From the IMG/VR virus record IMGVR_UViG_3300027863_000011, positions 1 through 34,255 of that record: a stretch of 34,255 nt of DNA. One strand, given 5' to 3'. The position numbers and the translations under genes were made by a program. Position 1 is the stretch's first letter. Each line of letters opens with the position of its first letter. The notes beneath the pieces were generated by a model. It had not been told where the DNA came from, did no database searches, and saw only the letters and a list, made by a program, of their open reading frames with translations. The DNA is from a virus. Below are positions 1-34,255 of this stretch, piece by piece.

Positions 1-402
1 AGCCATCTCCCGGATTTTGCTCTCCAGGCTCACGGGCACCAGGTAACCCCCGGCGGGGTCGGAACCCTTGTACAGGTCACGAGACTCGACCACGTTCCTC
101 CCGGCGCGAAGGAAGGCGTAAAAGGCGTCGCGGTACTCCCTGGTTTCGCTCACCCGCACCTCCGGGGCTTCGGGCTCGTTCAGGACCCGCGCCTCCTCGT
201 CCAGCACCGCGCGAGTAGCGGCCTCCACGCGCTCGATAGCCTCAATCTGCTCGCGGAGAGAGCGGGCCTCTTCCTCCATGCGGTCAAAGGTCTCCTTCGC
301 CTCGCCGGAGAATTCACGCCCCTCCTTCTCCAGCCGCTCCAGGTACCCGCGCATCTCGTTAACCAGGTTGGCGTATTTGCGTCGCAGGTCTCTTGCGTCC
401 AT
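1..402 (-). CDS. Major capsid protein (HK97 fold), N-terminal part with coiled-coil delta-like region; continues across the circular junction into 33352..34255
   Basis: Minus-strand ATG at 402, 5-6 nt downstream of GGAGG. My translation is MDARDLRRKYANLVNEMRGYLERLEKEGREFSGEAKETFDRMEEEARSLREQIEAIERVEAATRAVLDEEARVLNEPEAPEVRVSETREYRDAFYAFLRAGRNVVESRDLYKGS. It runs off position 1 and overlaps the start of ORF 33352..34221. It is in frame once the 127-nt overlap is collapsed (1179 nt in total). Confidence 0.85.
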   Translation of the reverse strand, partial: MDARDLRRKYANLVNEMRGYLERLEKEGREFSGEAKETFDRMEEEARSLREQIEAIERVEAATRAVLDEEARVLNEPEAPEVRVSETREYRDAFYAFLRAGRNVVESRDLYKGSDPAGGYLVPVSLESKIREMA

Positions 403-7122: not shown

Positions 7123-7150
7123 GTGATAAAACCATCATTATTATATAATT

Positions 7151-8275: not shown

Positions 8276-11083
8276 TCACCATTCCAGGCCTATCTGGTCC
8301 GCCGCCGACGGGGGCTTACCCCCTATCCCGCTTGCGTCGCCTGCGCCGCACGCCACCTCGGCTACGTCAGCTATGCCCGCATCGCCCGCATCGCCCGCAT
8401 CGCCCGCGTCGCCTGCGTCGCCCGCTACGCCCGCTACGCCCGCTACGCCCGCATCGCCTGCTACGTCTACGTCGCCTGACGGCATGAACCCGTAGCGATA
8501 TACCTTGGCATGTCCATCCCAGGTGACATACATCCCGAACAGGCGGGAAAGGTTCCTCTCGTGTGCCAGGAGGGCCTCCCCGAACCGGTGGGGGGTGATT
8601 ACCTTTCCGGCCCGGTCCCGAAGGGCACGCCCCCCTCCGTAATATGTGGTGAGCTCCTCCAGCAGCTCACGCGCGGTCAGGCTCCGGGGGGCGCCGCTTT
8701 GGTCTATATGGCGCCCGTCGGAAATCCATAGCCGAAGGACGTCTATCGCCGGTATGCTCTGGGCGGAGAATGTGGATGCCTGGGTGTAGGTCTTCACCAT
8801 TAGGTCATCCCAAACCTCCTCCTCAAAGCCCGCCGCAAGGAACAGCCCCTTTGCCAGGCTCATGAACTCGGATTGCCGGTGGCGCGTTTCCACGGCCTGC
8901 CTCGCCTGGTGCCAGTTCTTCGCCGCAAGGGAGAAGATGTAATGCAGGATGGCGTTTCGGCACTTCTGGATAGGTTCGTATACATGGTCTTCCCGCCGCC
9001 GTTTCTTCTCGCTTAGCTGGCTCAGCTCGAAGAACACCGCGCGGGTGACAACGTCATGTCGGTATTTATAGGCGGCGCCGTGCATGCTGGTGGTGATGAT
9101 ACCTGGGGTAGGGGTGATTTGAACACTGTCGAAATCTGTGTACAGTTTACGCTTTTCGTAGGCACTGCCGGTTATGACCGCCGCCAGGGCGTCGTGCAGG
9201 CCCCGGATGGTGGCGGTCTCCAGGTTGTCCAGGCACACCAGCCATCCCCTTTCCAGCATGACCCACAGGTCGTCGAGGTTTGGCGGCAGTTGCCGTACCC
9301 CCCAGCCATCCCCTACCAGGAGCCGACCGATGCTCCTGGCCAGGGTGGTCTTCCCGCTGTCGGCTTCCCCTATGATGCACAGGATAGGAGGCCGTATCCG
9401 GGCCGCCAGGCCCACCGGGAGAGCAAGGATGAGGGCCATGAGGAGGGTAGAATAGTCATCTTTCCGAAAGACCGGCCCGTCCTTCCAAGGCCAGGAATTG
9501 CAGAATACATGCAACATAGTTTCCCCGAAGCCCCCCAGCCGGGGCGGCTTGCCTATCGGGCTTAAGCCGGGCTCCGAGCGGAAGAGGACGCCGTCCGCCC
9601 CGTTAGGGAGGAGGTGGGGCTCCCCGGTCCCTAAATCCCACCTCCACATGGTCCCGTCCCCGTTGTCGCGGTAGATGCCCCGTTCGTTTATGCAGGCGAC
9701 GCGGTGCAGGTCGACCGCGCGCCCTTCGTTTAGGCCGCAGAGGCGCAGGTGCTGATAGACGTATCCGAAAAGGGCCTCCTCCGCGGGATTAAGCCCGAAC
9801 TCGAAGAGGATACGCTCGAAAGGCTGCCCCGGGCCGATGGAGGGGGGCATGGGAATGACCTGGTGGGTTTCCCGGCTGAAGTAGAAAACCCCGCCATCGG
9901 GGCGGTTTTCGGTGAGGAACTCCCCCGCATCCCTTAAGGCGGCCTGTATCTCTTCGGCTATCCTGCGTTTCACCTGCCGGGCGGCCCTCCCACCCGAAAG
10001 GTATTTTTGGATGCGGCCCCCCACGATTTGGGGCGAATGGGGGGTCAGCCGCTTCATGTTCTCGTTCAGGATGTCGGAAAGGTAGGTTCGGAATTCCTGG
10101 ATGACCTCTTCGCGGGCGGCGTATCGGTTCCGCTTGTATAGAAAAGCCCACAGGTCCCCCAGGTCTTTTACCCCCGGAAAAGGGGGCGTCCAGAGGTGCA
10201 GGTAGACTTCCCGGCCCCCGGAGGCGATTTCTTCCGCCCAGCGGCGGGCAGCCTCGGCCCCAGCGGGGTCGGCGTCATACAGAAAGTGGATTTCCTTGCT
10301 CGTGTCGAAATAGCGTACCGCGGGGGCGGGGTTGTAACCGGCCGCCCCCACGGATACGGCGGGCATCCCCCCGATATACCACAGGATGTCGGCATCCTTT
10401 TGACCTTCGGTAAAGAATATCTTGTCACTCCACAGGACCCCGCTTTCCGGGATGTAGAGGCCGTGCCCGTGGCCTTCTGGGGGGTTCTCCCCGCCCTTGA
10501 TGATAATGAACTTCGGGCCGGTGCCGTTGACCACCGCCCGGCCGAAAAGGCAGCAGGTTTTGTATTCGTCATTTATCTTTACGAAGTGAGGATAGATGTA
10601 CCGATAATCGAAGCATTGGGGCCAGCGGCGGGAGGCCCAGAGCTCTTCCGCGTTTTCTATCAGGTTCTTTTCGGCGGCCTCCCGCAGAATCTCCCTTGAA
10701 ATGATGCTGTCCAAGAAGAGGTGGGGTTTGTTGAGGGCCACCAAGCCGGTATCTTCCAGATATTTATAACCCGTTTTGTTCGGTTTTTTGTCCCGGAGGG
10801 CCGCCAAGAGAAGGGCGTACAGGGTGTCGTCATAAGAAACGCTTTCCGGCATGTCCCCGGTCAGGTACCGAAGGAGGGTTTCCATGGACAAGGCGCGCCC
10901 CCCGACCATGCAGTTGTTCGAGTGGCATTTGAACAGGACGCGCCCGCCCTCCGCGGTAAAGAACCCCGCGCTGGGGTGCTGGTCTTCGTGAAAGGGGCAG
11001 CGTACCGAGTTTGGTGGGTGTGCAGGGTCTATTTCTTCGGGCCAGAGGTCGGCAATCCTTATGAGCAGGTCGCGGTCTTCCAT
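8276..11083 (-). CDS. Bifunctional DNA primase / P-loop helicase (CHC2 zinc finger + Toprim + P4/D5-like NTPase)
   Basis: CPFHEDQHPSAGFF...FKCHSNNC (CHC2 finger); FFTEGQKDADILW and FLYDADPAGAEAARRW (Toprim-like); IIGEADSGKTTLARSIG with WLVCLDNLE (Walker A/B). GGAGGAGG precedes the ATG at 11083. Confidence 0.88.
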   Translation of the reverse strand: MEDRDLLIRIADLWPEEIDPAHPPNSVRCPFHEDQHPSAGFFTAEGGRVLFKCHSNNCMVGGRALSMETLLRYLTGDMPESVSYDDTLYALLLAALRDKKPNKTGYKYLEDTGLVALNKPHLFLDSIISREILREAAEKNLIENAEELWASRRWPQCFDYRYIYPHFVKINDEYKTCCLFGRAVVNGTGPKFIIIKGGENPPEGHGHGLYIPESGVLWSDKIFFTEGQKDADILWYIGGMPAVSVGAAGYNPAPAVRYFDTSKEIHFLYDADPAGAEAARRWAEEIASGGREVYLHLWTPPFPGVKDLGDLWAFLYKRNRYAAREEVIQEFRTYLSDILNENMKRLTPHSPQIVGGRIQKYLSGGRAARQVKRRIAEEIQAALRDAGEFLTENRPDGGVFYFSRETHQVIPMPPSIGPGQPFERILFEFGLNPAEEALFGYVYQHLRLCGLNEGRAVDLHRVACINERGIYRDNGDGTMWRWDLGTGEPHLLPNGADGVLFRSEPGLSPIGKPPRLGGFGETMLHVFCNSWPWKDGPVFRKDDYSTLLMALILALPVGLAARIRPPILCIIGEADSGKTTLARSIGRLLVGDGWGVRQLPPNLDDLWVMLERGWLVCLDNLETATIRGLHDALAAVITGSAYEKRKLYTDFDSVQITPTPGIITTSMHGAAYKYRHDVVTRAVFFELSQLSEKKRRREDHVYEPIQKCRNAILHYIFSLAAKNWHQARQAVETRHRQSEFMSLAKGLFLAAGFEEEVWDDLMVKTYTQASTFSAQSIPAIDVLRLWISDGRHIDQSGAPRSLTARELLEELTTYYGGGRALRDRAGKVITPHRFGEALLAHERNLSRLFGMYVTWDGHAKVYRYGFMPSGDVDVAGDAGVAGVAGVAGDAGDAGDAGDAGDAGIADVAEVACGAGDASGIGGKPPSAADQIGLEW
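8372..8476. repeat. Tandem 9-bp repeat (about 11 units, consensus on the plus strand ATCGCCCGC / TACGCCCGC) inside the 3' end of the primase-helicase gene
   Basis: Read directly: tatgcccgc atcgcccgc x3 gtcgcctgc gtcgcccgc tacgcccgc x3 atcgcctgc tacgtc tacgtcgcc. It encodes ...DVDVAGDAGVAGVAGVAGDAGDAGDAGDAGDAGIADVAEVA.... Confidence 0.9.
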
Positions 11084-11180: not shown

Positions 11181-11780
11181 TCAGAGCAGCTTATAAGGCT
11201 CCCGGAAAAGCCTACACCTCGTGTTCAGGCAGGCCAGGTGGTCGTCGCACACCAAGGCTATGTGGTTTCCATCGAACTCCCACGTGTAGGGGCAGGTAAG
11301 CCGGAAATTGCCGTGTCGGGCGTCCACCCACAAGATGGAGTGGCCCAACTCCCCTTCTAACTTCCCGATGGCTTCGTCCAGCCGACAGAGGTGAGCTATG
11401 GCGCCCAAAAGCACGTCCTCTTTAGGTGGGGGGACAATCCCAGTGACCACAGGGGCTTCCGGGTTTTTGCGGACGAAGTAGGGCTTTATCCTCGCCAGTT
11501 TGTAGGATTCGCCGTGAAGGGGGCAGAATTTATGGAAGCATTCGATAGCGAGGCAGTCGTTCTCCTGAACCGGCACGAGCCGGTGGAAATGGGGTTCCTC
11601 CGCGCCGTAGGGGCAGACCAGGAATATCCCCTCCGACTTCGGGTCATGCACGTGGATAGGTGCCAAGAAGTAGTTCTCGGCTTCTCGTAAGGAGTTTAGT
11701 ACCTCCTTACGGTCCACCACGTCGAAGAAGTGCGGGGTGAGGAAGACGAGGTTTTCGTGCATCCAGGAGTACACGTTCAT
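11181..11780 (-). CDS. Hypothetical early protein with an internally duplicated Cys/His-rich domain
   Basis: AGGAGGTAAAAGC precedes the ATG at 11780 (MNVYSWMHEN...). The two halves share LVCPYG...CLAIECFHKFCPLHGESYKL versus LTCPYT...CDDHLACLNTRCRLFREPYKL. It is the first gene of the leftward early operon. Confidence 0.6.
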   Translation of the reverse strand: MNVYSWMHENLVFLTPHFFDVVDRKEVLNSLREAENYFLAPIHVHDPKSEGIFLVCPYGAEEPHFHRLVPVQENDCLAIECFHKFCPLHGESYKLARIKPYFVRKNPEAPVVTGIVPPPKEDVLLGAIAHLCRLDEAIGKLEGELGHSILWVDARHGNFRLTCPYTWEFDGNHIALVCDDHLACLNTRCRLFREPYKLL

Positions 11781-11841
11781 GCTTTTACCTCCTTTCGTCT
11801 GTGCCCCCATTCTTTAGGTGGCTGCCCTTGCGTCTATATTT

Positions 11842-11872
11842 ATTATACTCTATTTTTCGGTAAATTTATCAA
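11842..11872 (-). promoter_or_regulatory. Candidate early (leftward) promoter
   Basis: The minus strand reads TTGATA (11872-11867), a 19-nt spacer, then TATAAT (11847-11842). The spacer is longer than optimal. Confidence 0.3.
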
Positions 11873-11959
11873 TAACTTTATACCAAAATATACGGCTATT
11901 TTTATGCATATATCCAGTAAATTCGGGGATTTTTAAATCGTAATAAAGCAACCAGCGGC

Positions 11960-11988
11960 TTGATATTTAAAGAGGATTTTACTAAACT
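11960..11988 (+). promoter_or_regulatory. Candidate promoter of regulator copy 1
   Basis: TTGATA (11960-11965), 17 nt, TAAACT (11983-11988). It is preceded by AAAGCAACCA, a motif also found upstream of the paralogous promoter at 13854. Confidence 0.45.
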
Positions 11989-12038
11989 TAAACCAAGGTA
12001 AAAGAGGGCGGAGTTCTGGGAAGGTGGTGACGATGACG

Positions 12039-12503
12039 ATGAAGGTGAGTAAGAGACCCATCCCCTTTAACCTGTGGTTTAGGTACGCCCGTTATACCCG
12101 CCACTACTCCCAGACTCGGTTGGCGGAAGAGGCCGGGCTTGGGCAGACCACCGTGGTGGACCTGGAGACCGGGAAGCGGGACCCCAATTCCCTATCGCTT
12201 CGAAACATAAGAAAACTCTCCCGGGCCCTTGATATGGATTTGCTCTCCTTCCTGTCGAATGTCCTGTGGAGGCCCACCAAGTTCGAGCCTGGGCAATGCT
12301 CCAGATGCCGTAAGCCCGTGTATCCCTTTTCCTTGAACGAGCTGCGGATAAACATGGGCGGCAAGGAGCAGCTTTCCCTGTCTATGTGTGACCGGTGCCA
12401 CGCACAGTTCTTCTATATGCTCGGCTCGTTCCTCGACGAGCCCATACGAGAGGTATTACCCCCGGAATGGATAGAAGGAGAGTATCATGTTACTGAACCG
12501 TAA
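12039..12503 (+). CDS. XRE-family HTH regulator with C-terminal CxxC...CxxC zinc-ribbon-like domain (copy 1; candidate immunity repressor)
   Basis: YSQTRLAEEAGLGQTTVVDLETGKRDPNSLSLRNIRKLSRALDMDL is a Cro/CI-type HTH. The C-terminal part carries CSRCRKP...CDRCHAQF. AAGGTGGTGA lies 8 nt upstream of the ATG at 12039 (the ORF track starts at GTG 12024). It is divergent from the early operon. Confidence 0.8.
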   Translation: MKVSKRPIPFNLWFRYARYTRHYSQTRLAEEAGLGQTTVVDLETGKRDPNSLSLRNIRKLSRALDMDLLSFLSNVLWRPTKFEPGQCSRCRKPVYPFSLNELRINMGGKEQLSLSMCDRCHAQFFYMLGSFLDEPIREVLPPEWIEGEYHVTEP

Positions 12504-12576
12504 ACAACGTGCCGAGGCCCTTGGTGTTTACCCCAGCACTCATCTCCCGTTCTCCTTGTCCTCCTTATCGGAGTAG
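12487..12576 (+). pseudogene. Truncated/frameshifted remnant of an excisionase-like gene (paralog of 14390..)
   Basis: MLLNRKQRAEALGVYPSTHLPFSLSSLSE compared with MLVNRKQLAEAIGVHPNTIRRWELEGVL. The DNA aligns for about 60 nt (atgttactgaaccgtaaacaacgtgccgaggcc... versus atgctggtgaaccgtaagcagctggccgaggct...), then loses frame. It has the same overlap geometry with the upstream regulator gene. Confidence 0.6.
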
Positions 12577-12586
12577 CCCTCGGCCT

Positions 12587-13639
12587 TCACCGCGGGCCTC
12601 CTTTTCGTTTGATGAATAGGCGTTTGAATGTTTCTTTTCCACTCAAATATGACCCTCTTCCATATATACCATTGGGGTCTTGGTCGATGCCCTGATTTGA
12701 GCCCAAAATCTCGAACTGGTCAGGGTTATATTTATCCAAAAACGTAATCGGCACCCCCATAACCCCGTCGTAGTCGTAGGGTATCTCGGCGACTTTCGAC
12801 ACCTCGATGGCGTCGTAGTTGTCGTACTTGGGATACTTCTCCGGGTCGTAGCGCGCGTACAGGGTCAGCTCCTCGTGGCGCTTCGGGATGTCGAGGTTGG
12901 TGAACCAGCAAGCCATAATGTGTTTTACCCTTACTCCGTTTATAATTTTTTCACAAGCATAGTGTTTTGGGACAATGAACCACATATCCTGGTTGATATT
13001 TCTGTGTCCTATCCACAATTTGTTCTCTTTTATCAATGGGAATATTTCTTTATAGGTTATGGCGTTTTTGTTCCCAATTATCACGAACTTCTTCCCATAT
13101 TCCATAAGTTGCGCCACATACTCCCGGAACAGCGAGAAGGGCGGGTTGGTCACCACGATGTCGGCTTCTTTGAGCAGTTCCACGCACTCGGGGGAGCGGA
13201 AGTCCCCGTCTCCCTCCAACAGGGTCAGGGTGTTCTTCTTGTTCTTAATCAGCTGTTCCACGTCGGTAGGGCCAATTGCCCCATCTCCGGTCGTATCCGG
13301 GACTTCGGTTATTTCTACTTTGTAGGCCCTTTTTTCTTTTCCCCTTTTGTCCTCACCCTTGGGGCATTCCGCATCCAAGAGAGATAATTGTTTTTCCGCT
13401 ACGGGAGACCCGGCGTAGCTGGTGGTGATGAGCTTCTTTAGCCCCAAGTGGTTGAAGTTCAGGACGAAGTACCTAAAGAAGTTACTCTCGTAAGGGTCGT
13501 CACAATTGCAGTAGACCACTTTGTTGCGGAAATGTGGTTTGTAATGGCGCAGCTCCTCTTCAATGTCCTCCAGCCGAGTGTAGAACTCGTCCTGCTTGGC
13601 TTTTTTCGCCTTGTTTAGGGCCTTGTTGGTACTTCCCAC
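12587..13639 (-). CDS. Orphan N6-adenine DNA methyltransferase, EcoRI-methylase-like family
   Basis: KQDEFYTRLEDIEEEL...VVYCNCDDPYESNFFRYF...LGLKKLITTSY, and catalytic VVTNPPFSLF (motif IV NPPF). No adjacent nuclease ORF. GTG start at 13639. GC is visibly lower than its surroundings. Confidence 0.85.
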   Translation of the reverse strand: MGSTNKALNKAKKAKQDEFYTRLEDIEEELRHYKPHFRNKVVYCNCDDPYESNFFRYFVLNFNHLGLKKLITTSYAGSPVAEKQLSLLDAECPKGEDKRGKEKRAYKVEITEVPDTTGDGAIGPTDVEQLIKNKKNTLTLLEGDGDFRSPECVELLKEADIVVTNPPFSLFREYVAQLMEYGKKFVIIGNKNAITYKEIFPLIKENKLWIGHRNINQDMWFIVPKHYACEKIINGVRVKHIMACWFTNLDIPKRHEELTLYARYDPEKYPKYDNYDAIEVSKVAEIPYDYDGVMGVPITFLDKYNPDQFEILGSNQGIDQDPNGIYGRGSYLSGKETFKRLFIKRKGGPR

Positions 13640-13853
13640 CCTTTATTCACCTTTGAGAACGTCTGCGGCCCCAACCTCCTTTCTCGATACCGCCCGTATG
13701 GGCTTCCCCGACCGCCCTACTACTATTATTATAGTCCTAATATCGGATATTTTGGTTATATTTTTAATATTAAATTTTTTATTTTTCCCTGGTGATCAGG
13801 GTTTTTAAGGGTTTTTGATACCTAAATTTTTTATGCCAAAGCAACCACAAGAC

Positions 13854-13882
13854 TTGACATATATGCGCCTTACGTATAAAAT
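13854..13882 (+). promoter_or_regulatory. Candidate promoter of regulator copy 2 / xis / int
   Basis: TTGACA (13854-13859), 17 nt, TAAAAT (13877-13882). It is preceded by AAAGCAACCA, as at copy 1. Confidence 0.5.
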
Positions 13883-13941
13883 AAAGCAAGGAAGATGGAG
13901 GTTCGTATGACAGCGCGCGGGGATTGTGGGGGGGTAGAAAA

Positions 13942-14406
13942 ATGGAAGTGGAAAAGCGCTCGGAAGGCCTCAACCAATGGCTGCGCTTCATGCGTTTGGG
14001 GCACAACCTGACCCAGGCCCAGCTGGCACGGCGGGCCGGTTTAAGCTTAACCACCATCTCGGACCTTGAAAGGTCCCAGCGGGACCCGGAGGGCCTAACC
14101 CTCCGTAACCTACGTAGGCTTGCCCGCGCCCTTGATATGAACCTGTTTACGCTCATCTCGAACATCCTTTGGCGGCACGAGGGAATACGGTGGGGGCGGT
14201 GCTCCCGCTGTGGTAATCCGGGCGACCTGTTTAGATACCGGGAGGTCGGGATTGACCTTGGGGGGCACTCTGATTTCTTCTTTTCGCTGTGTCCCGCCTG
14301 CTACGGCGAGTTCTACGGCCTGCTTTCTACCTTTTTTGACCAAAAGTTACGTGAGTTACTATACGGGGATAGAACGGGACTTTTCGATTATGCTGGTGAA
14401 CCGTAA
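13942..14406 (+). CDS. XRE-family HTH regulator with C-terminal zinc-ribbon-like domain (copy 2)
   Basis: LTQAQLARRAGLSLTTISDLERSQRDPEGLTLRNLRRLARALDMNL followed by CSRCGNP...CPACYGEF. It is collinear with copy 1 along the whole length, with roughly 40 percent identity by eye. Start placed at the ATG at 13942. Confidence 0.8.
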   Translation: MEVEKRSEGLNQWLRFMRLGHNLTQAQLARRAGLSLTTISDLERSQRDPEGLTLRNLRRLARALDMNLFTLISNILWRHEGIRWGRCSRCGNPGDLFRYREVGIDLGGHSDFFFSLCPACYGEFYGLLSTFFDQKLRELLYGDRTGLFDYAGEP

Positions 14407-14743
14407 GCAGCTGGCCGAGGCTATAGGTGTCCACCCAAACACTATCCGCCGGTGGGAGTTGGAGGGGGTGCTACGCCCTGCCCTTCGTCACGGGCGCGTG
14501 ATACGATATGATATAGACGAGGTTCGGAGGCAGCTACAACCCGAATTCCAAGATGCCGGTTTACAAACTGGGGCCAGGCAAATACAGCGCGGAAAAAACA
14601 TACCGGGGGTGGCGTTTCCATCGCCGCTTTCGAAGCCGGGAACAAGCAGAACGCGCCATCCGGGATTTCATGAATGCGGTCGACGCAGGGATTTGGGGAT
14701 GCCCGGAAATCCCAGACAAAACAACCCTCGGCGTTTTCCTTGA
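14390..14743 (+). CDS. xis: Excisionase / MerR-like HTH DNA-binding protein (end uncertain)
   Basis: MLVNRKQLAEAIGVHPNTIRRWELEGVLRPALRHGRVIRYDIDEVRRQL is a typical excisionase-family HTH. The ATG at 14390 overlaps the end of the regulator gene. The frame stays open 190 nt into int with a low-complexity tail. Confidence 0.55.
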   Translation: MLVNRKQLAEAIGVHPNTIRRWELEGVLRPALRHGRVIRYDIDEVRRQLQPEFQDAGLQTGARQIQRGKNIPGVAFPSPLSKPGTSRTRHPGFHECGRRRDLGMPGNPRQNNPRRFP

Positions 14744-15587
14744 TGGGTGGATTTCCTCCCGCTGGGAGGAGTGGAAACCTTCCACCGCCCGCTCGTACCT
14801 TTCCATCATGCGACGGGCGATGGCCGAGCTTGGCGATGTGCCACTGGAACAAGTCGGTCCCCACGACATACAAAGGTTCCTTGACGGGCTTCAAGTCTCC
14901 CCCAAGACAAAGAAGAACTACCGCCTCTTTTTGAGCAGCGCTTTCTCTGCGGCCTGCTCCCTCGGCCTTATAGACGAAAACCCCGTCCTGGACACCCGCC
15001 CGCCGAGAACCCATCGCAGGCCCCTGCACATCTTGAGCCCGGGGGAAGCCCGTTCTCTTCTGGAGGCGTTCCCGGACCCGCACGACCGGCAGCTGGTGGA
15101 GTTTGCCATGCTTACCGGCCTGCGCCGGGGGGAAATCTTCGCCCTTCAGTGGCGTGACCTCCAAGACGGTTCCGTGCACGTGGAGAGGACGCTCTCTGGG
15201 GGCCGGGAGGCCCTCCCCAAGGGCCGGAAGCGGCGGCGGGTGCCTCTCCCGGAGCATCTGTGGGTCGAGCTGGAGGCCCGCCGCGGGGAGCCGAACGAGC
15301 GGGTGTTCCCGGGGAACCCGGACACCTGGGTCAAACGGCGGTTCTCGCCCGCAGTTAGGCAGGCGGGCTTGGACGGGCTTCGGTTCCACGACCTTCGCCA
15401 CTTCTTCGCATCCTCCGCCATCCGGGCAGGGGTGGACATCCTGCGTCTCCAAACCTGGTTAGGCCACAGCTCTGCCCAGGTGACCCTCGACATCTACGGG
15501 CACCTCTTCCCCGCGGACGAGGCCTCCCTAATCGAGAGGTTGGCAAACGGATTACACCAAAATCACACCAGCGACCCCGGCAAATGA
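14553..15587 (+). CDS. int: Tyrosine recombinase (phage integrase)
   Basis: N-terminal arm-binding-like YKLGPGKYSAEKTYRGWRFHRRFRSREQAERA. Catalytic region LRRGEIFALQWRDL, FHDLRHFFASSAI and LGHSSAQVTLDIYGHLF. attP lies immediately downstream. Confidence 0.95.
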   Translation: MPVYKLGPGKYSAEKTYRGWRFHRRFRSREQAERAIRDFMNAVDAGIWGCPEIPDKTTLGVFLDGWISSRWEEWKPSTARSYLSIMRRAMAELGDVPLEQVGPHDIQRFLDGLQVSPKTKKNYRLFLSSAFSAACSLGLIDENPVLDTRPPRTHRRPLHILSPGEARSLLEAFPDPHDRQLVEFAMLTGLRRGEIFALQWRDLQDGSVHVERTLSGGREALPKGRKRRRVPLPEHLWVELEARRGEPNERVFPGNPDTWVKRRFSPAVRQAGLDGLRFHDLRHFFASSAIRAGVDILRLQTWLGHSSAQVTLDIYGHLFPADEASLIERLANGLHQNHTSDPGK

Positions 15588-15631: not shown

Positions 15632-15686
15632 TGGTAGCGGGGGGTGGATTCGAACCACCGACCTTCGGGTTATGAGCCCGATGCGC
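15632..15686 (-). other. attP core: 3' portion of a tRNA-Met(CAU) gene (anticodon stem-loop, variable loop, T arm, acceptor 3' strand, CCA)
   Basis: The reverse complement reads TCGGG-CTCATAA-CCCGA-AGGTC-GGTGG-TTCGAAT-CCACC-CCCCGCT-A-CCA. The GGG/CCC anticodon stem is initiator-like. No D arm or 5' acceptor strand is present upstream, so it is a fragment, as expected for a phage that integrates into a tRNA gene. Confidence 0.8.
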
Positions 15687-15780
15687 GCTCTCCTCCCTTA
15701 TCGGGCTTGGCCTGCTATTTTGCTCTTTACGAGCGCTTTTACGCTTGGTGCCTAAACCAGGAATAACCATAAAATACTAT

Positions 15781-15813
15781 AAAATCACACCAAAATCACA
15801 CCAAAATCACACC
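15781..15813. repeat. Three tandem 11-bp repeats AAAATCACACC (candidate integrase arm-type sites); a fourth copy at 15559-15569
   Basis: Read directly: aaaatcacacc x3 at 15781-15813, with the same 11-mer at 15559-15569 on the other side of the tRNA core. All are in the same orientation. Confidence 0.7.
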
Positions 15814-15872
15814 AACCTCGTGTCGGGCTTGGGGGGCACCAGAGGTCCTTCTTCCTTAGTGAAGGGGCGGGG

Positions 15873-16916
15873 TTAAATCCGGGGTGAGGAGATTAGCTCC
15901 CCAAGTGAGGGGAAATCATTCAGGAGACGAATAGATTTCTGGGGCTTTGTGGGGCGTAGGAGGTCTTCCTTGATTTTCTCCACGCATTCCTCCAAGCTGT
16001 GCGCCAAGTAAGTGGAGAGCCAAGTCACCCACGGGTTGTCATAGCCGGGAGGGACATATACATAAGTAGGCTTACCCAGCATCTTGGCGAAGAACAGCTC
16101 ACTCACGGTTCCGGCGCGGACATCGTGTATTTGGGTGAGGTTCACGAGCAGGGCGTCCGACCGGAGGACCGCACTCAAATCCCGGCGGACCAGCTCTTTT
16201 ACGTCATCGGGTTCGTCCACGGTGGGGTCGATACAATAGAAAACCGGGCCAAGCAACCGCTTGGCCCGGTTTCTCCAGCCTTGCGCCTGTCTCGCGGTTA
16301 AGTTGAAAATCCCTCCCGAAAGATAGACCATGGCCTTCGCCCGGTTGGGGGAAGGGGGGAACCCGCAGTCCTCAAGGAGCCGCACGACCATCCGGCGGGC
16401 CTCGTCAATCGAGATCCCGTCGGTATGGAAACGAAAATCCCACCCCTCCCACGTATCCAGCGCGGTCTCGCTGCTGTGGTCTGCCGGGAGCGTCAACCCC
16501 GCGGCTTGGGCGCGCCGCCTCCGCTCGTCATCGGAAGCGTCAAGTCGTACAGTGACGAAGTCCCCCGCCTCCTGGAGCCGCATTATCTCGTTCGGGAAAC
16601 GGCAGTCGTCGATGGCTATGAGGGGACGCCCCGCCTTTTCCCAACGCCGGATGAGGTGGTTTATCCACACATCCGGGTCTATGCTCCTCGCCACCTCGGT
16701 TCCGAAGCGTTGTAGTATCCTGCGGTGTTTGGCTTTTTGTGCGGGGTCAAAAAAGTCGATGCCGAAGATTTCTCCAGCGTACCGCTTTACGGGTTCGGCG
16801 AAGGACCACCTCTCGAAATCGGGGTTTACTTCGCATACGAGTTCAGCCCAGGTCGTCTTTCCGGAGGCGGCTTTCCCCCCGAAGATGATACCGTCTGGCA
16901 AGGCCCCTCCTTCCAT
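15873..16916 (-). CDS. Fusion protein: dNMP kinase-like P-loop domain + nucleoside 2-deoxyribosyltransferase/dNMP N-hydrolase-like domain
   Basis: N-terminal half: FGGKAASGKTTWAELV, FAEPVKRYAGEIFG, RRILQRFGTEVARSIDPDVWINHL, IDDCRFPNEI (phage dNMP kinase pattern). C-terminal half (aa ~195-315): MVYLSGGIF...W...DL..VLRSDALLVNL...GTVSELFFAKMLGKPTYVYV (Nuc_deoxyrib_tr-like pattern with the conserved Glu). Confidence 0.7.
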   Translation of the reverse strand: MEGGALPDGIIFGGKAASGKTTWAELVCEVNPDFERWSFAEPVKRYAGEIFGIDFFDPAQKAKHRRILQRFGTEVARSIDPDVWINHLIRRWEKAGRPLIAIDDCRFPNEIMRLQEAGDFVTVRLDASDDERRRRAQAAGLTLPADHSSETALDTWEGWDFRFHTDGISIDEARRMVVRLLEDCGFPPSPNRAKAMVYLSGGIFNLTARQAQGWRNRAKRLLGPVFYCIDPTVDEPDDVKELVRRDLSAVLRSDALLVNLTQIHDVRAGTVSELFFAKMLGKPTYVYVPPGYDNPWVTWLSTYLAHSLEECVEKIKEDLLRPTKPQKSIRLLNDFPSLGELISSPRI

Positions 16917-33351: not shown

Positions 33352-34255
33352 TTAGGAGTCGCTCGCCATCTGCAATACCTGCACGGCCTCGGTGATGAGC
33401 AGGTTCCCGTCAACGCGCTCGTTCACCCGGAACCCGATTTGCCCGCTCCCCGCGTACAGCTCCACCAGCTTCTGGATGGTGATGCCGAGACGGTCCTGCA
33501 CGCGGTAATTGGAGAAATCGCCGAAAGCGATTACCTTGGCGTCGGCCTCCAGGGTATCGGGCATGTAGGGGGAGGTGTACACCGGATAGCCGAGCAGCCT
33601 GGGCGGGTTAGTGATTTGCTGCTCCAGCGTCCACAGGTACTGCCCCACGTCGTTCTTGAGCAGGGAGACCGCCAAGGCTATGTCGGTGTGCATGAGCCAG
33701 ATGGCGCGGGACTTGTAGGCTTGCTTCAGCTTCCAGGGCAGGCTCTTGACCTCGTCGAAGGTTATGGCATTGGTGGCCGCCGCGGTCACTCCGACCTCCG
33801 CGCGCCCCAGGAACCCGGTGGGCTGGCCAGTGCCGGTGCCATTGATGAAGTAGTTCTCCTCGGCGACCCCCAGGCCCTGCCCGGACTTCTTGGCGATGTA
33901 AGCCTCCAGGTCCGTCGCGGCGTCCGCCAGCAGCTCCTCGCTGACCTTGATTATCCCACCTATCTTGTAAGCATCGAGCTGCACCACGCCGAAGGTCAGG
34001 TTAGCCTCGGTATAGGCCCCCTTTTCGGCGATGATACCGAACTGGGGGATGCTCGCCTCGACAGGTATCTTCTCCTTGGTCGAGGAGACCACCACCTCGG
34101 CAAACTGGCGGATGACGTTGAGTTCCGCAGCCATCTCCCGGATTTTGCTCTCCAGGCTCACGGGCACCAGGTAACCCCCGGCGGGGTCGGAACCCTTGTA
34201 CAGGTCACGAGACTCGACCACGTTCCTCCCGGCGCGAAGGAAGGCGTAAAAGGCG
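33352..34255 (-). CDS. Major capsid protein (HK97 fold), C-terminal part; the 5' end wraps to 1..402
   Basis: ...GGYLVPVSLESKIREMAAELNVIRQFAEVV...AEKGAYTEANLTFGVVQLDAYKIGGIIKVSEELLADA...NGTGTGQPTGFL...WLMHTD...LLGYPVYTSPYMP... is a typical HK97-family capsid sequence. The frame is open to the window end. Confidence 0.9.
   Translation of the reverse strand, partial: AFYAFLRAGRNVVESRDLYKGSDPAGGYLVPVSLESKIREMAAELNVIRQFAEVVVSSTKEKIPVEASIPQFGIIAEKGAYTEANLTFGVVQLDAYKIGGIIKVSEELLADAATDLEAYIAKKSGQGLGVAEENYFINGTGTGQPTGFLGRAEVGVTAAATNAITFDEVKSLPWKLKQAYKSRAIWLMHTDIALAVSLLKNDVGQYLWTLEQQITNPPRLLGYPVYTSPYMPDTLEADAKVIAFGDFSNYRVQDRLGITIQKLVELYAGSGQIGFRVNERVDGNLLITEAVQVLQMASDS
34129..34255. repeat. 127-nt exact copy of positions 1..127 (end overlap of a circular assembly)
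   Basis: Base-by-base comparison of both ends. Confidence 0.95.

What the first reader, a model, noticed from the sequence alone, without database searches (positions are those of the whole stretch)
11944..14450. Duplicated promoter + HTH regulator + xis module bracketing a low-GC orphan methyltransferase; the first xis copy is a frameshifted stump
About 600 bp at 11944-12545 and about 610 bp at 13836-14450 are collinear paralogs. Each contains:
- the AAAGCAACCA motif;
- a TTGAYA-17-TAAAnT promoter;
- an HTH/zinc-ribbon gene;
- an ATG overlapping the gene end that opens an MLxNRKQxAEAxGV excisionase-like ORF.

In copy 2 the xis ORF continues into int. In copy 1 it loses frame after about 17-20 codons and stops. 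Between the copies, on the opposite strand, sits the methyltransferase. Its GC is clearly lower: I counted 38 and 50 percent in two 60-nt lines, against a visibly GC-dominated typical line elsewhere.

This looks like a scar of either an immunity-region duplication or recombination between two related phages. The methyltransferase cassette would have replaced the first xis-int. A temperate phage carrying two diverged copies of its putative immunity regulator is unusual, and may represent a two-repressor or hetero-immunity switch.
Basis: seen in the sequence. Interest (0 to 1): 0.7.

Follow-up and report, generated by a model that had tools for sequence, protein, structure and literature searches.

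The report
Duplicated phage control region around methylase
A complete 34-kb temperate phage genome carries two diverged copies of its control region (regulator gene plus the start of the excision gene) on either side of a captured DNA methylase gene; this is most likely a recombination scar between two related phages, which is real but fairly ordinary phage mosaicism.

Summary
Two collinear modules share these parts:
- box AAAGCAACCA;
- a TTGAYA-17-TAAAnT promoter;
- a 154-156-aa XRE-HTH/Cys4 regulator (43% aa identity, no gaps, E=1e-44);
- the first 18 codons of an excisionase-like gene.

They bracket an M.EcoRI-family methyltransferase (GC 48.8% against 59.3% for the genome).

1. Collinear landmarks suggest the repeat extends leftwards over the whole divergent control region. 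The methylase ORF then sits where copy 1 has the first early gene.
2. The first xis is truncated, not frameshifted. Homology ends after codon 18 in every frame.
3. The stump's differences from xis2 are mostly synonymous (9 synonymous, 5 non-synonymous; P=0.002), at the same synonymous divergence as the regulator genes. It was therefore an intact gene until recently.

This favours module exchange between two diverged related phages over an old in-place duplication.

The methylase is an orphan. Its cellular homologues (62-73% identity) sit beside a DUF262-HNH type II restriction enzyme, which this phage lacks.

The regulator's full-length family has only these two members among 1.84 billion representative proteins, and no related phage was found. 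A two-repressor or double-immunity switch therefore remains untested.

The parts
11181..11780 (-). ORF199, first gene of the leftward (early/lytic) operon of copy 1. It is a Cys/His-rich protein with an internal repeat and matches no family.
   Evidence: ORF list. The Logan gene call gives 199 aa. The ribosome-binding site GAAAGGAGGT lies 6 nt upstream of ATG 11780. No Pfam or PHROG hit.
11787..11847 (-). Copy 1 leftward control landmarks: ribosome-binding site GAAAGGAGGT (11796-11787) and the -10-like box TATAATAAATATAG (11847-11834), 45 nt apart.
11945..11998 (+). Copy 1 rightward promoter: box A AAAGCAACCA (11945-11954), TTGATA-17-TAAACT (11960-11988), box B AAACCAAGG (11990-11998). Box A to box B is 45 nt start to start.
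   Evidence: Homology with copy 2 gives z=4.0, with 0 of 500 shuffles reaching the score.
12033..12503 (+). HTH1: XRE-type helix-turn-helix regulator with a C-terminal Cys4 (CxxC...CxxC) domain, 156 aa.
   Evidence: PF01381 at 32.2 bits, above the cut-off of 23. Paralogue of HTH2. Equals protein P0002.
12487..12576 (+). Truncated xis (stump), a 29-codon ORF. Only codons 1-18 (12487-12540) are homologous to xis2. It has a strong ribosome-binding site (AAGGAG, 12475-12480), and its ATG lies 17 nt before the HTH1 stop codon.
12546..13673 (-). Insert between the two copies (1128 bp) on the extended-repeat reading: 41 nt, then the methylase ORF, then a 34-nt leader. DNA similarity to cellular methylase loci covers the ORF only.
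   Evidence: In-register identity falls to 25% after 12544. blastn against cellular loci covers window 12602-13641 only. The right boundary rests on the landmark argument.
12587..13639 (-). Orphan M.EcoRI-family (type II, N6-adenine) DNA methyltransferase, 350 aa, GTG start, TNPPF motif.
   Evidence: PF13651 E=1.9e-139. PADLOC MTase_II E=9e-124. Homologues are 62-73% identical and conserved to the C-terminus. No restriction enzyme gene anywhere in the genome.
13674..13733 (-). Copy 2 leftward control landmarks: GAAAGGAGGT (13683-13674) with no start codon at a working distance (the methylase GTG is 34 nt away), and TATAATAATAGTAG (13733-13720), 44 nt apart.
13838..13891 (+). Copy 2 rightward promoter: box A AAAGCAACCA (13838-13847), TTGACA-17-TAAAAT (13854-13882), box B AAAGCAAGG (13883-13891). 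Box A to box B is 45 nt.
13942..14406 (+). HTH2: paralogous XRE-HTH/Cys4 regulator, 154 aa.
   Evidence: PF01381 at 39.2 bits. The AF2 model shows a five-helix HTH domain plus beta hairpins carrying the Cys pairs, at low confidence (pLDDT 61.7). The nearest folds are R-M controller proteins, DdrO, SinR and P22 c2, over the HTH domain only.
14390..14743 (+). xis2: MerR/HTH_17-type excisionase-like ORF. Its ATG lies 17 nt before the HTH2 stop codon. Its last 191 nt overlap int out of frame.
   Evidence: MerR_1 at 29.3 bits (cut-off 21.6); HTH_17 at 25.5 bits (cut-off 27). PHROG 66, excisionase/regulator, E=4.8e-7. The overlapping tail is not coding-like in the xis frame.
14553..15587 (+). Tyrosine integrase, 344 aa.
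   Evidence: PF00589 at 74.7 bits. PHROG 1 E=8.6e-66.
15635..15698 (-). attP core: the 3' part of a tRNA-Met(CAT) gene.
   Evidence: Rfam tRNA at 37.5 bits. ARAGORN finds no complete tRNA. A stretch of 47-52 nt is identical to tRNA genes of Chloroflexota and Actinomycetota genomes assembled from metagenomes.

Best explanation
**What the window is.** It is a complete, circularly assembled 34,128-bp temperate tailed-phage genome. All lytic, replication and structural genes lie on the minus strand. Only the lysogeny module lies on the plus strand: regulator, xis, int, then attP in tRNA-Met.

**What the repeat is.** The module's control region is present twice, about 0.6 kb by demonstrable homology and about 0.76 kb if the collinear leftward landmarks are counted. 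Each copy contains:
- a leftward -10 box and ribosome-binding site;
- box A;
- a rightward promoter;
- box B;
- an HTH/Cys4 regulator gene;
- the first 18 codons of xis.

**How it most likely arose (inferred).** An illegitimate join between two related but well-diverged phages.
- Arm A contributed: lytic genes, leftward promoter 1, rightward promoter 1, HTH1, and xis1 up to codon 18.
- Arm B contributed: methylase, leftward promoter 2, rightward promoter 2, HTH2, xis2, int2 and attP.
- In the donor of arm B, the methylase ORF had already taken the place of the first early-left gene.
- The join cut xis1 recently, compared with the age of the split between the two modules.

**How it most likely works now (inferred).**
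- HTH1 sits at the true lytic/lysogenic switch. It controls the early-left operon (ORF199, primase and so on) and its own promoter.
- HTH2 controls its own operon (HTH2-xis2-int, translationally coupled) and the paralogous leftward promoter. That promoter now drives only the methylase.
- Both rightward promoters keep the same two boxes at the same spacing, so either protein may act at both.
- The methylase, captured without its restriction partner, protects phage DNA against hosts carrying the cognate type II system (methylase plus DUF262-HNH nuclease).
- The 29-codon stump is a leftover.
For: **Shown.**
- Paralogy of the two regulators over their full length, and of the promoter region.
- Each copy is the other's only full-length relative among 1.84e9 representative proteins.
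- Collinear landmarks with nearly equal spacing in both copies: ribosome-binding site to leftward -10, 45 vs 44 nt; then to box A, 97 vs 104 nt; then to -35, 5 vs 6 nt; spacer 17 vs 17 nt; box A to box B, 45 vs 45 nt. TATAATAAnnnTAG occurs exactly only at these two places in the genome.
- The copy-2 ribosome-binding site has no start codon behind it.
- Regulator genes: pS 0.64, pN 0.40. xis head: pS 0.68, pN 0.12, with 9 synonymous and 5 non-synonymous differences (binomial P=0.0018). The stump therefore diverged as a coding gene to the same synonymous depth as the regulators.
- Homology stops at about 12545 in all frames.
- The methylase is foreign: GC 48.8% against 59.3%; 62-73% identical to proteins from Thermoplasmata, Anaerolineae, Patescibacteria, Clostridia and Pseudomonadales; similarity to cellular loci is limited to the ORF.
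- In all three cellular contexts examined, the homologue is followed by a full-length PADLOC REase_II protein (GmrSD_N+HNH). The phage has no such gene.
- Genome layout and circularity.
- Four assemblies are identical in this region.
Against: - No relative of this phage or of the regulator was found. Neither parental arrangement has been seen, so the direction of the event cannot be fixed.
- The synonymous/non-synonymous argument rests on only 18 codons, and the first 6 of them overlap the end of the HTH gene. Codons 7-18 alone give P=0.024.
- The leftward AT-rich part of the repeat is supported by landmarks and spacing, not by a significant alignment (z=0.5-1.6).
- The boxes were defined from the four sites themselves.
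- No binding, transcription or methylation data exist. It is not known which protein, if either, is the immunity repressor.
- Co-transcribing a repressor with xis and int would be awkward for stable lysogeny.
Confidence: 0.6

Rival explanations
1. In-place tandem duplication. An ancestor duplicated its own control region (or the whole regulator-xis-int module). The copies diverged inside one lineage, perhaps under selection for a new operator specificity. The methylase later landed at the junction and removed the rest of xis1, and int1 if it was there.
For: The two copies are each other's only full-length relatives in 1.84e9 representative proteins. Both ORFs are intact and align without gaps, with dN/dS about 0.38, so both look maintained.
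Against: - A stump that had been dead since an old duplication should have decayed. Instead it has no indel or stop in 18 codons, and its differences are mostly synonymous at the same pS as the regulators.
- Keeping two complete xis(-int) modules functional in one 34-kb genome for that long is less parsimonious.
- The orphan ribosome-binding site and the leftward -10 box in copy 2 fit a copy that once headed its own early operon in another genome.
Confidence: 0.2
2. Restriction-modification origin. HTH2 is a controller (C) protein that arrived together with the methylase as a divergent C/M pair. HTH1 is a later copy recruited to the phage switch.
For: - One cellular homologue has a divergent 83-aa HTH_26 gene upstream of the methylase, which is the same geometry.
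- The best structural matches of the HTH2 model are C.BclI, C.AhdI and C.Esp1396I.
- There are weak PADLOC 'Control_protein' hits.
Against: - The cellular HTH is unrelated beyond the fold: 23% identity, E=0.04, and E=24 against HTH1.
- DNA similarity to cellular loci stops at the methylase ORF ends.
- Both HTH genes are translationally coupled to a xis start, so the regulator-xis unit is the ancestral one.
- Both are twice the size of C proteins and carry a unique Cys4 domain.
- The fold matches have E about 1e-3 and also include P22 c2, 434 Cro and SinR.
Confidence: 0.04
3. The stump is kept because it is useful, not as a mere leftover. It could be a translated 29-aa peptide coupled to HTH1. 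Alternatively, its antisense RNA could form a hairpin that ends or insulates methylase transcription before it runs antisense into HTH1 and on into the lytic operon.
For: - A strong ribosome-binding site (AAGGAG) lies 6 nt before its ATG, better than that of xis2.
- Its substitution pattern is that of a protein under purifying selection.
- The methylase-strand RNA across 12500-12600 folds well (-40.2 kcal/mol, z=-3.7). It includes a hairpin antisense to the stump that is absent from copy 2.
Against: - Eighteen residues are about one helix of a winged-helix domain and cannot form the fold.
- The hairpin alone is only marginal (z=-1.7, 9 of 200 shuffles fold as well) and lacks a clear U-tract.
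- Purifying selection is equally explained by a past life as an intact xis.
- No relatives exist to test conservation.
Confidence: 0.1

Closest known systems
Modular (mosaic) exchange of lysogeny modules between heteroimmune temperate phages, which leaves truncated gene remnants (general knowledge of lambdoid and dairy phages)
   Same: A sharp homology breakpoint inside a gene (xis, about 12545). Paralogous sequence on one side and unrelated sequence on the other. A remnant that still looks like a recently functional gene.
   Different: The exchange left both regulators and both promoter sets in one genome, instead of swapping one for the other. No parental genomes are available.
Phage-borne orphan DNA methyltransferases acquired as single-gene additions (morons) for anti-restriction (for example Dam-type methylases of P1, T-even and Stx phages; from general knowledge)
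   Same: A single methylase ORF with atypical GC and no restriction partner in a phage genome. The closest homologues belong to complete type II systems.
   Different: The family is M.EcoRI-like (PF13651), whose partner is a DUF262-HNH nuclease. The ORF appears to sit in the slot of the first early gene behind a duplicated early-type promoter. Its target sequence is unknown.
Restriction-modification controller (C) proteins such as C.BclI, C.AhdI and C.Esp1396I
   Same: XRE-type HTH fold (best Foldseek matches). The gene is divergent from a methylase gene. Two sites flank or overlap its own promoter, which suggests autoregulation.
   Different: HTH1 and HTH2 are 154-156 aa with an extra Cys4 domain. 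There is no restriction enzyme gene. The boxes are direct repeats 45 bp apart, not adjacent dyads. The genes are coupled to xis-int. There is no sequence relationship to the C-like gene next to cellular homologues.
ICEBs1-type immR-immA-int operon, and lambda-type CI/Cro switches
   Same: An XRE-type regulator gene transcribed away from the element's main operon and in the same direction as int, next to attP or the element end.
   Different: There is no ImmA-type protease and no S24 peptidase domain. A xis-like gene lies between regulator and int. The regulator is present twice.
Phages with more than one immunity region (P22 immC/immI; P1 and N15 with several imm regions; N15-type phages described in PMC4997575 and PMC4488713)
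   Same: More than one regulatory locus in a single temperate phage.
   Different: In those phages the regions encode unrelated functions (repressor against antirepressor control). Here the two loci are paralogues of each other.

Membership tests
XRE / Cro-CI helix-turn-helix regulators (Pfam HTH_3, PF01381) | Match to the HTH_3 profile above the curated cut-off | tested here: met
   HTH1 32.2 bits and HTH2 39.2 bits; cut-off 23.
Lambda CI / LexA-type cleavable repressors | C-terminal S24 peptidase domain | tested here: not met
   No Peptidase_S24 hit. The C-terminus is a Cys4 domain that matches no Pfam family.
Restriction-modification controller (C) proteins | Small single-domain protein of about 70-100 aa | tested here: not met
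   154-156 aa with an additional conserved Cys4 domain.
Restriction-modification controller (C) proteins | Encoded within a system that has a restriction endonuclease gene | tested here: not met
   tblastn with the partner restriction enzymes of cellular homologues finds nothing in the genome.
Restriction-modification controller (C) proteins | C-protein-like fold | tested here: inconclusive
   The top Foldseek hits are C proteins, but E is about 1e-3 and other XRE regulators score alike. The model pLDDT is 61.7.
Excisionase / recombination directionality factor of the MerR-HTH_17 winged-helix type | Winged-helix domain match, and a gene directly upstream of int | tested here: met
   xis2 scores 29.3 bits on MerR_1 (cut-off 21.6) and E=4.8e-7 on PHROG 66. 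HTH_17 scores 25.5 bits, just below its cut-off of 27. The gene lies immediately upstream of int and overlaps it.
Excisionase / recombination directionality factor of the MerR-HTH_17 winged-helix type | Stimulates excision with its integrase | not testable with these tools
   This needs an in vivo or in vitro recombination assay.
Excisionase (the copy 1 stump) | Complete winged-helix domain | tested here: not met
   Only residues 1-18 are homologous. There is no Pfam hit and no continuation in any frame.
Tyrosine integrases (PF00589) | Catalytic domain match above the cut-off | tested here: met
   74.7 bits against a cut-off of 27.1; PHROG 1 E=8.6e-66.
M.EcoRI-family N6-adenine methyltransferases (PF13651) | Full-length profile match and the NPPF catalytic motif | tested here: met
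   465 bits, covering residues 8-321. TNPPFSLF is invariant in the alignment. PADLOC MTase_II E=9e-124.
M.EcoRI-family N6-adenine methyltransferases (PF13651) | Recognition sequence (GAATTC or other) and methylation activity | not testable with these tools
   The genome has 9 GAATTC and 6 CAATTG sites, so there is no obvious avoidance. No solved-structure relative was found by sequence.
Orphan (solitary) methyltransferase | No cognate restriction enzyme in the same replicon | tested here: met
   The genome is complete and circular. There is no homologue of the partner REase_II.

The most novel reading that the evidence does not exclude
The phage runs a two-regulator circuit built from a protein family seen nowhere else (XRE-HTH plus Cys4 domain; two members among about 15 billion proteins). 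HTH1 holds the lytic switch. Its paralogue HTH2 separately gates integration/excision (xis-int) and an early anti-restriction methylase. Through the shared box A and box B sites the two cross-talk, and lysogens gain immunity to both parental phage types.
Probability: 0.2. Interest if true: 0.55.

Novelty: new member of a known kind. Interest (0 to 1): 0.3.

Why it matters
- If the reading is right, this is a clean snapshot of how temperate phages swap lysogeny modules. The breakpoint lies inside xis, the remnant is still fresh, and both parental regulators are retained.
- It also shows how a bare methylase ORF can be captured from a type II restriction system and placed behind an early-type promoter as a counter-defence.
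- The regulator family (HTH plus Cys4 domain) is otherwise unsampled. The phage probably infects uncultured Chloroflexota or Actinomycetota, so it is a small window on lysogeny control in a poorly known host group.
- It does not reveal a new kind of system.

Tried and rejected
1. **Search for single-copy relatives.** Every route failed.
   - The word-indexed protein search with HTH2 found only the query itself.
   - The exhaustive HMMER profile search found only the two copies at full length.
   - Scans of viral contigs with the HTH alignment, the primase and ORF199 found nothing.
   - A metagenome-contig scan with the alignment found nothing. A degenerate DNA pattern for the HTH-end/xis-start junction gave only chance hits.
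   - megablast against GenBank phages hit only the tRNA fragment.
   - The closest integrase homologues are about 33% identical and sit in unrelated small elements.
2. **Prophage relatives at the tRNA-Met site.** The 42-nt core matched 24 genome loci, none of which carries phage-related genes.
3. **Frameshift hypothesis for the stump.** Rejected. tblastn finds no continuation in any frame. The 100 nt after the stump are only marginally similar to xis2 (z=2.0, 16 of 500 shuffles). The part of that stretch under the methylase's C-terminus, which is conserved in homologues, belongs to the methylase.
4. **Homology of the AT-rich leftward region.** Not significant by alignment. It rests on landmarks only.
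5. **Dyad-symmetric operators or C-boxes in either intergenic region.** Nothing convincing.
6. **Family for the Cys4 domain.** No Pfam or NCBIfam match.
7. **Specificity of the methylase.** Not found in the literature, and no solved-structure relative by sequence.
8. **Published precedents for paralogous repressor duplication.** Literature searches gave nothing specific.

Full report
**1. What the window is**

The last 127 nt of the window repeat its first 127 nt, so it is a circular assembly of 34,128 bp. Four independent assemblies exist (JGI, ENA and Logan; contigs of 34.1-34.3 kb with different start points). They carry the same sequence, 99.98-100% identical overall and 100% identical across 11701-14800. 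The arrangement is therefore not an assembly artefact.

The genome is that of a tailed temperate phage. The following genes all lie on the minus strand:
- terminase, portal, protease and major head protein;
- tape measure and tail proteins;
- amidase;
- RusA;
- a 935-aa primase-like protein;
- a dNMP kinase.

Only five plus-strand ORFs matter: two HTH genes, a short xis-like stump, xis and int. Downstream of int lies the 3' part of a tRNA-Met(CAT) gene on the minus strand (Rfam 37.5 bits; ARAGORN finds no whole tRNA). This is the likely attP core. A stretch of 47-52 nt of it is identical to tRNA genes of Anaerolineae/Thermoflexales (Chloroflexota) and Geothermincolales/Candidatus Solincola (Actinomycetota) genomes assembled from metagenomes.

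**2. Check of the observation**

- **Regulators.** The two regulators align without a single gap over 154 residues: 43% identity over the 140 aligned by BLASTP, E=1e-44.
- **Not just the HTH motif.** Identity is 50% in the HTH domain and 31% in the C-terminal domain. That domain carries CxxC...CxxC with all four Cys conserved and matches no Pfam family.
- **Refutation test failed.** A profile of the pair, run exhaustively over 1.84 billion representative proteins, matched full length only the two copies (307 and 302 bits). Every other hit covered only about positions 5-75.
- **Promoter features.** The region from the box to the start codon aligns better than any of 500 dinucleotide shuffles (z=4.0).
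- **xis heads.** They share 13 of 18 residues.
- **Methylase.** It matches PF13651 at 465 bits. Its GC is 48.8% against 59.3% for the genome.

**3. Corrections and additions**

*(a) The stump is truncated, not frameshifted.*
- In-register identity falls from 70% to 25% at about 12545.
- tblastn with Xis2 finds only residues 1-18, in one frame.
- The methylase C-terminus is conserved in homologues to within a few residues of its stop codon. The sequence from about 12590 onward therefore belongs to the methylase gene.

*(b) The repeat probably extends further left than reported.* On the minus strand both copies carry a perfect -10-like box. TATAATAAnnnTAG occurs exactly only at 11847-11834 and 13733-13720 in the whole genome (expected 0.06). 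It is followed 45 nt (copy 1) or 44 nt (copy 2) later by the ribosome-binding site GAAAGGAGGT.
- In copy 1 this site serves ORF199 (ATG 11780), the first gene of the leftward operon.
- In copy 2 no start codon follows it. The methylase GTG lies 34 nt away.
- The remaining spacings also match between the copies: leftward -10 to box A, 97 vs 104 nt; box A to -35, 5 vs 6 nt; spacer 17 vs 17 nt; box A to a second box (AAAsCAAGG just after the -10), 45 vs 45 nt.
- The AT-rich part between these landmarks is not significantly alignable. This extension therefore rests on landmarks and spacing only.
- On this reading the insert is 12546-13673, little more than the methylase ORF. It occupies the slot of the first early-left gene of copy 2.
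- DNA similarity to cellular methylase loci also stops at the ORF ends.

*(c) Timing of the truncation.*
- Nei-Gojobori counts for the regulator genes give pS 0.64 and pN 0.40.
- For the 18 xis codons they give pS 0.68 and pN 0.12, with 9 synonymous and 5 non-synonymous differences where 24% synonymous is expected (binomial P=0.0018).
- For codons 7-18, outside the overlap with the HTH gene, P=0.024.
- The stump thus diverged from xis2 as far as the regulators did, but as a protein-coding gene under purifying selection. It has no indel or stop in those codons.
- It must have been part of a working xis for most of that time and was cut recently.

**4. The methylase**

- The family is huge and promiscuous. 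At least 8000 proteins score below E=1e-30, and the best are 62-73% identical. The few that carry source names come from Thermoplasmata, Anaerolineaceae, Patescibacteria, Clostridia and Pseudomonadales.
- In all three cellular contexts examined, the gene is followed directly by a protein of about 360 aa with GmrSD_N (DUF262) and HNH domains. That protein matches PADLOC REase_II over its full length (E=1.6e-139). In one case a divergent 83-aa HTH_26 gene precedes the methylase.
- The phage has no trace of the nuclease, so its methylase is an orphan. The most likely role is protection of phage DNA from hosts that carry the complete system. This is an inference from general knowledge of phage orphan methylases.
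- The target sequence is unknown. GAATTC occurs 9 times and CAATTG 6 times in the genome.

**5. Most likely origin and function**

*Origin.* The data fit a join between two related, well-diverged phages. One arm ends in xis1 codon 18. The other begins just past the methylase stop and brings methylase, control region 2, HTH2, xis2, int and attP. An old in-place duplication is less likely because the stump does not look long dead. It cannot be excluded, because no relatives exist to compare.

*Function.* This part is inferred only.
- HTH1 faces the early-left lytic operon and is the better candidate for the switch regulator.
- HTH2 heads a translationally coupled HTH2-xis-int operon. In both copies the xis ATG lies 17 nt before the HTH stop codon.
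- HTH2 faces the paralogous leftward promoter, which now drives only the methylase.
- Both genes look maintained: intact, same length, dN/dS about 0.38, all four Cys conserved.
- The shared boxes suggest each protein could act at both promoters.
- Whether a lysogen is immune to two phage types is open.

**6. Rivals considered**

- **C-protein origin.** HTH2 might be a restriction-modification controller protein that came with the methylase. In favour are the geometry seen in one cellular locus and the top Foldseek hits, which are C.BclI, C.AhdI and C.Esp1396I. Against it:
  - those fold matches are weak (E about 1e-3, on a model with pLDDT 61.7) and are shared with P22 c2, 434 Cro, SinR and DdrO;
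  - the cellular HTH is unrelated in sequence;
  - both phage regulators are twice the size of C proteins;
  - both are coupled to xis.
- **Functional stump.** The stump might be retained for a function. It has a strong ribosome-binding site. The methylase-strand RNA across 12500-12600 folds well (z=-3.7). The stump-antisense hairpin alone is marginal (z=-1.7). This cannot be decided here.

**7. Comparison with known systems, and novelty**

- The pieces are ordinary: an XRE regulator, a MerR/HTH_17-type xis, a tyrosine integrase, tRNA attachment, an orphan methylase, and a mosaic breakpoint with a gene remnant.
- Two things are less usual. Both parental control regions survive in one small genome, giving a paralogous regulator pair. 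The regulator's HTH-plus-Cys4 architecture is otherwise unsampled.
- Literature searches found multi-region immunity in N15-type phages (PMC4997575, PMC4488713) but nothing on paralogous duplication of this kind. That is absence from a limited library, not proof of novelty.
- I file it as a new member of a known kind (phage mosaic junction with a moron), of modest interest.

**8. Limits**

- There are no relatives and no expression, binding or methylation data.
- The selection test uses 18 codons.
- The boxes and the leftward landmarks were recognised after the fact.

Noticed in passing
window 1-127 and 34129-34255: The last 127 nt repeat the first 127 nt, so the window is a circular assembly of 34,128 bp. 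Independent assemblies of 34.1-34.3 kb have permuted start points.
   Followed up: yes
window 15635-15698 (-), 15560-15569 and 15781-15815: The 3' part of a tRNA-Met(CAT) gene lies next to int and is the likely attP core. AAAATCACACC is repeated 3.2 times in tandem at 15781-15815, and a further AAATCACACC lies on the other side of the core at 15560-15569. These are candidate integrase arm sites. The core is identical to tRNA genes of Chloroflexota and Actinomycetota genomes assembled from metagenomes, with the longest matches in Geothermincolales/Ca. Solincola, which hints at the host.
   Followed up: partly
window 14390-14743 against 14553-15587: The xis2 ORF has no stop codon until 14743, so it overlaps int by 191 nt in another frame. 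The overlapping part has int-frame, not xis-frame, codon-position GC. The last 60 or so residues of Xis are therefore probably an unselected tail. A GAATTC site (14543-14548) lies directly before the int ATG.
   Followed up: partly
window 11181-11780 (-): ORF199, the first early-left gene, has two similar Cys/His-rich halves (CPYGAEEPHFH...C..C and CPYTWEFDGNH...C..C). It matches no Pfam, PHROG or PADLOC family. It could be the Cro-like or antirepressor partner of the switch.
   Followed up: no
window 8370-8476 (-), C-terminus of the 935-aa primase-like protein: A 9/18/27-nt tandem repeat encodes a (GDA/GVA)n low-complexity tract near the C-terminus of the protein.
   Followed up: no
window 15873-16916 (-): A fusion protein with an N-terminal dNMP-kinase-like domain (PHROG 139, E=3e-33) and weak, below-cut-off hits to a nucleoside 2-deoxyribosyltransferase-like C-terminal domain. 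It lies next to attP and may be involved in nucleotide salvage or modification.
   Followed up: no
L033 3596-6159, L035 49-2186, L036 775-2873: Cellular homologues of the methylase form a widespread type II system whose nuclease is a DUF262 (GmrSD_N) + HNH protein. Once it has a divergent 83-aa HTH_26 controller-like gene.
   Followed up: partly
window 12500-12600 (-): The methylase-strand RNA across its stop codon and the antisense of the xis stump folds unusually well (-40.2 kcal/mol, z=-3.7). This could end or insulate methylase transcription before it enters HTH1 antisense.
   Followed up: partly
window 7132-7145 (-): A third near-match (one mismatch) to the leftward -10 box TATAATAAnnnTAG lies in an intergenic gap upstream of the RusA/terminase block. 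It may be another promoter of the same class.
   Followed up: no
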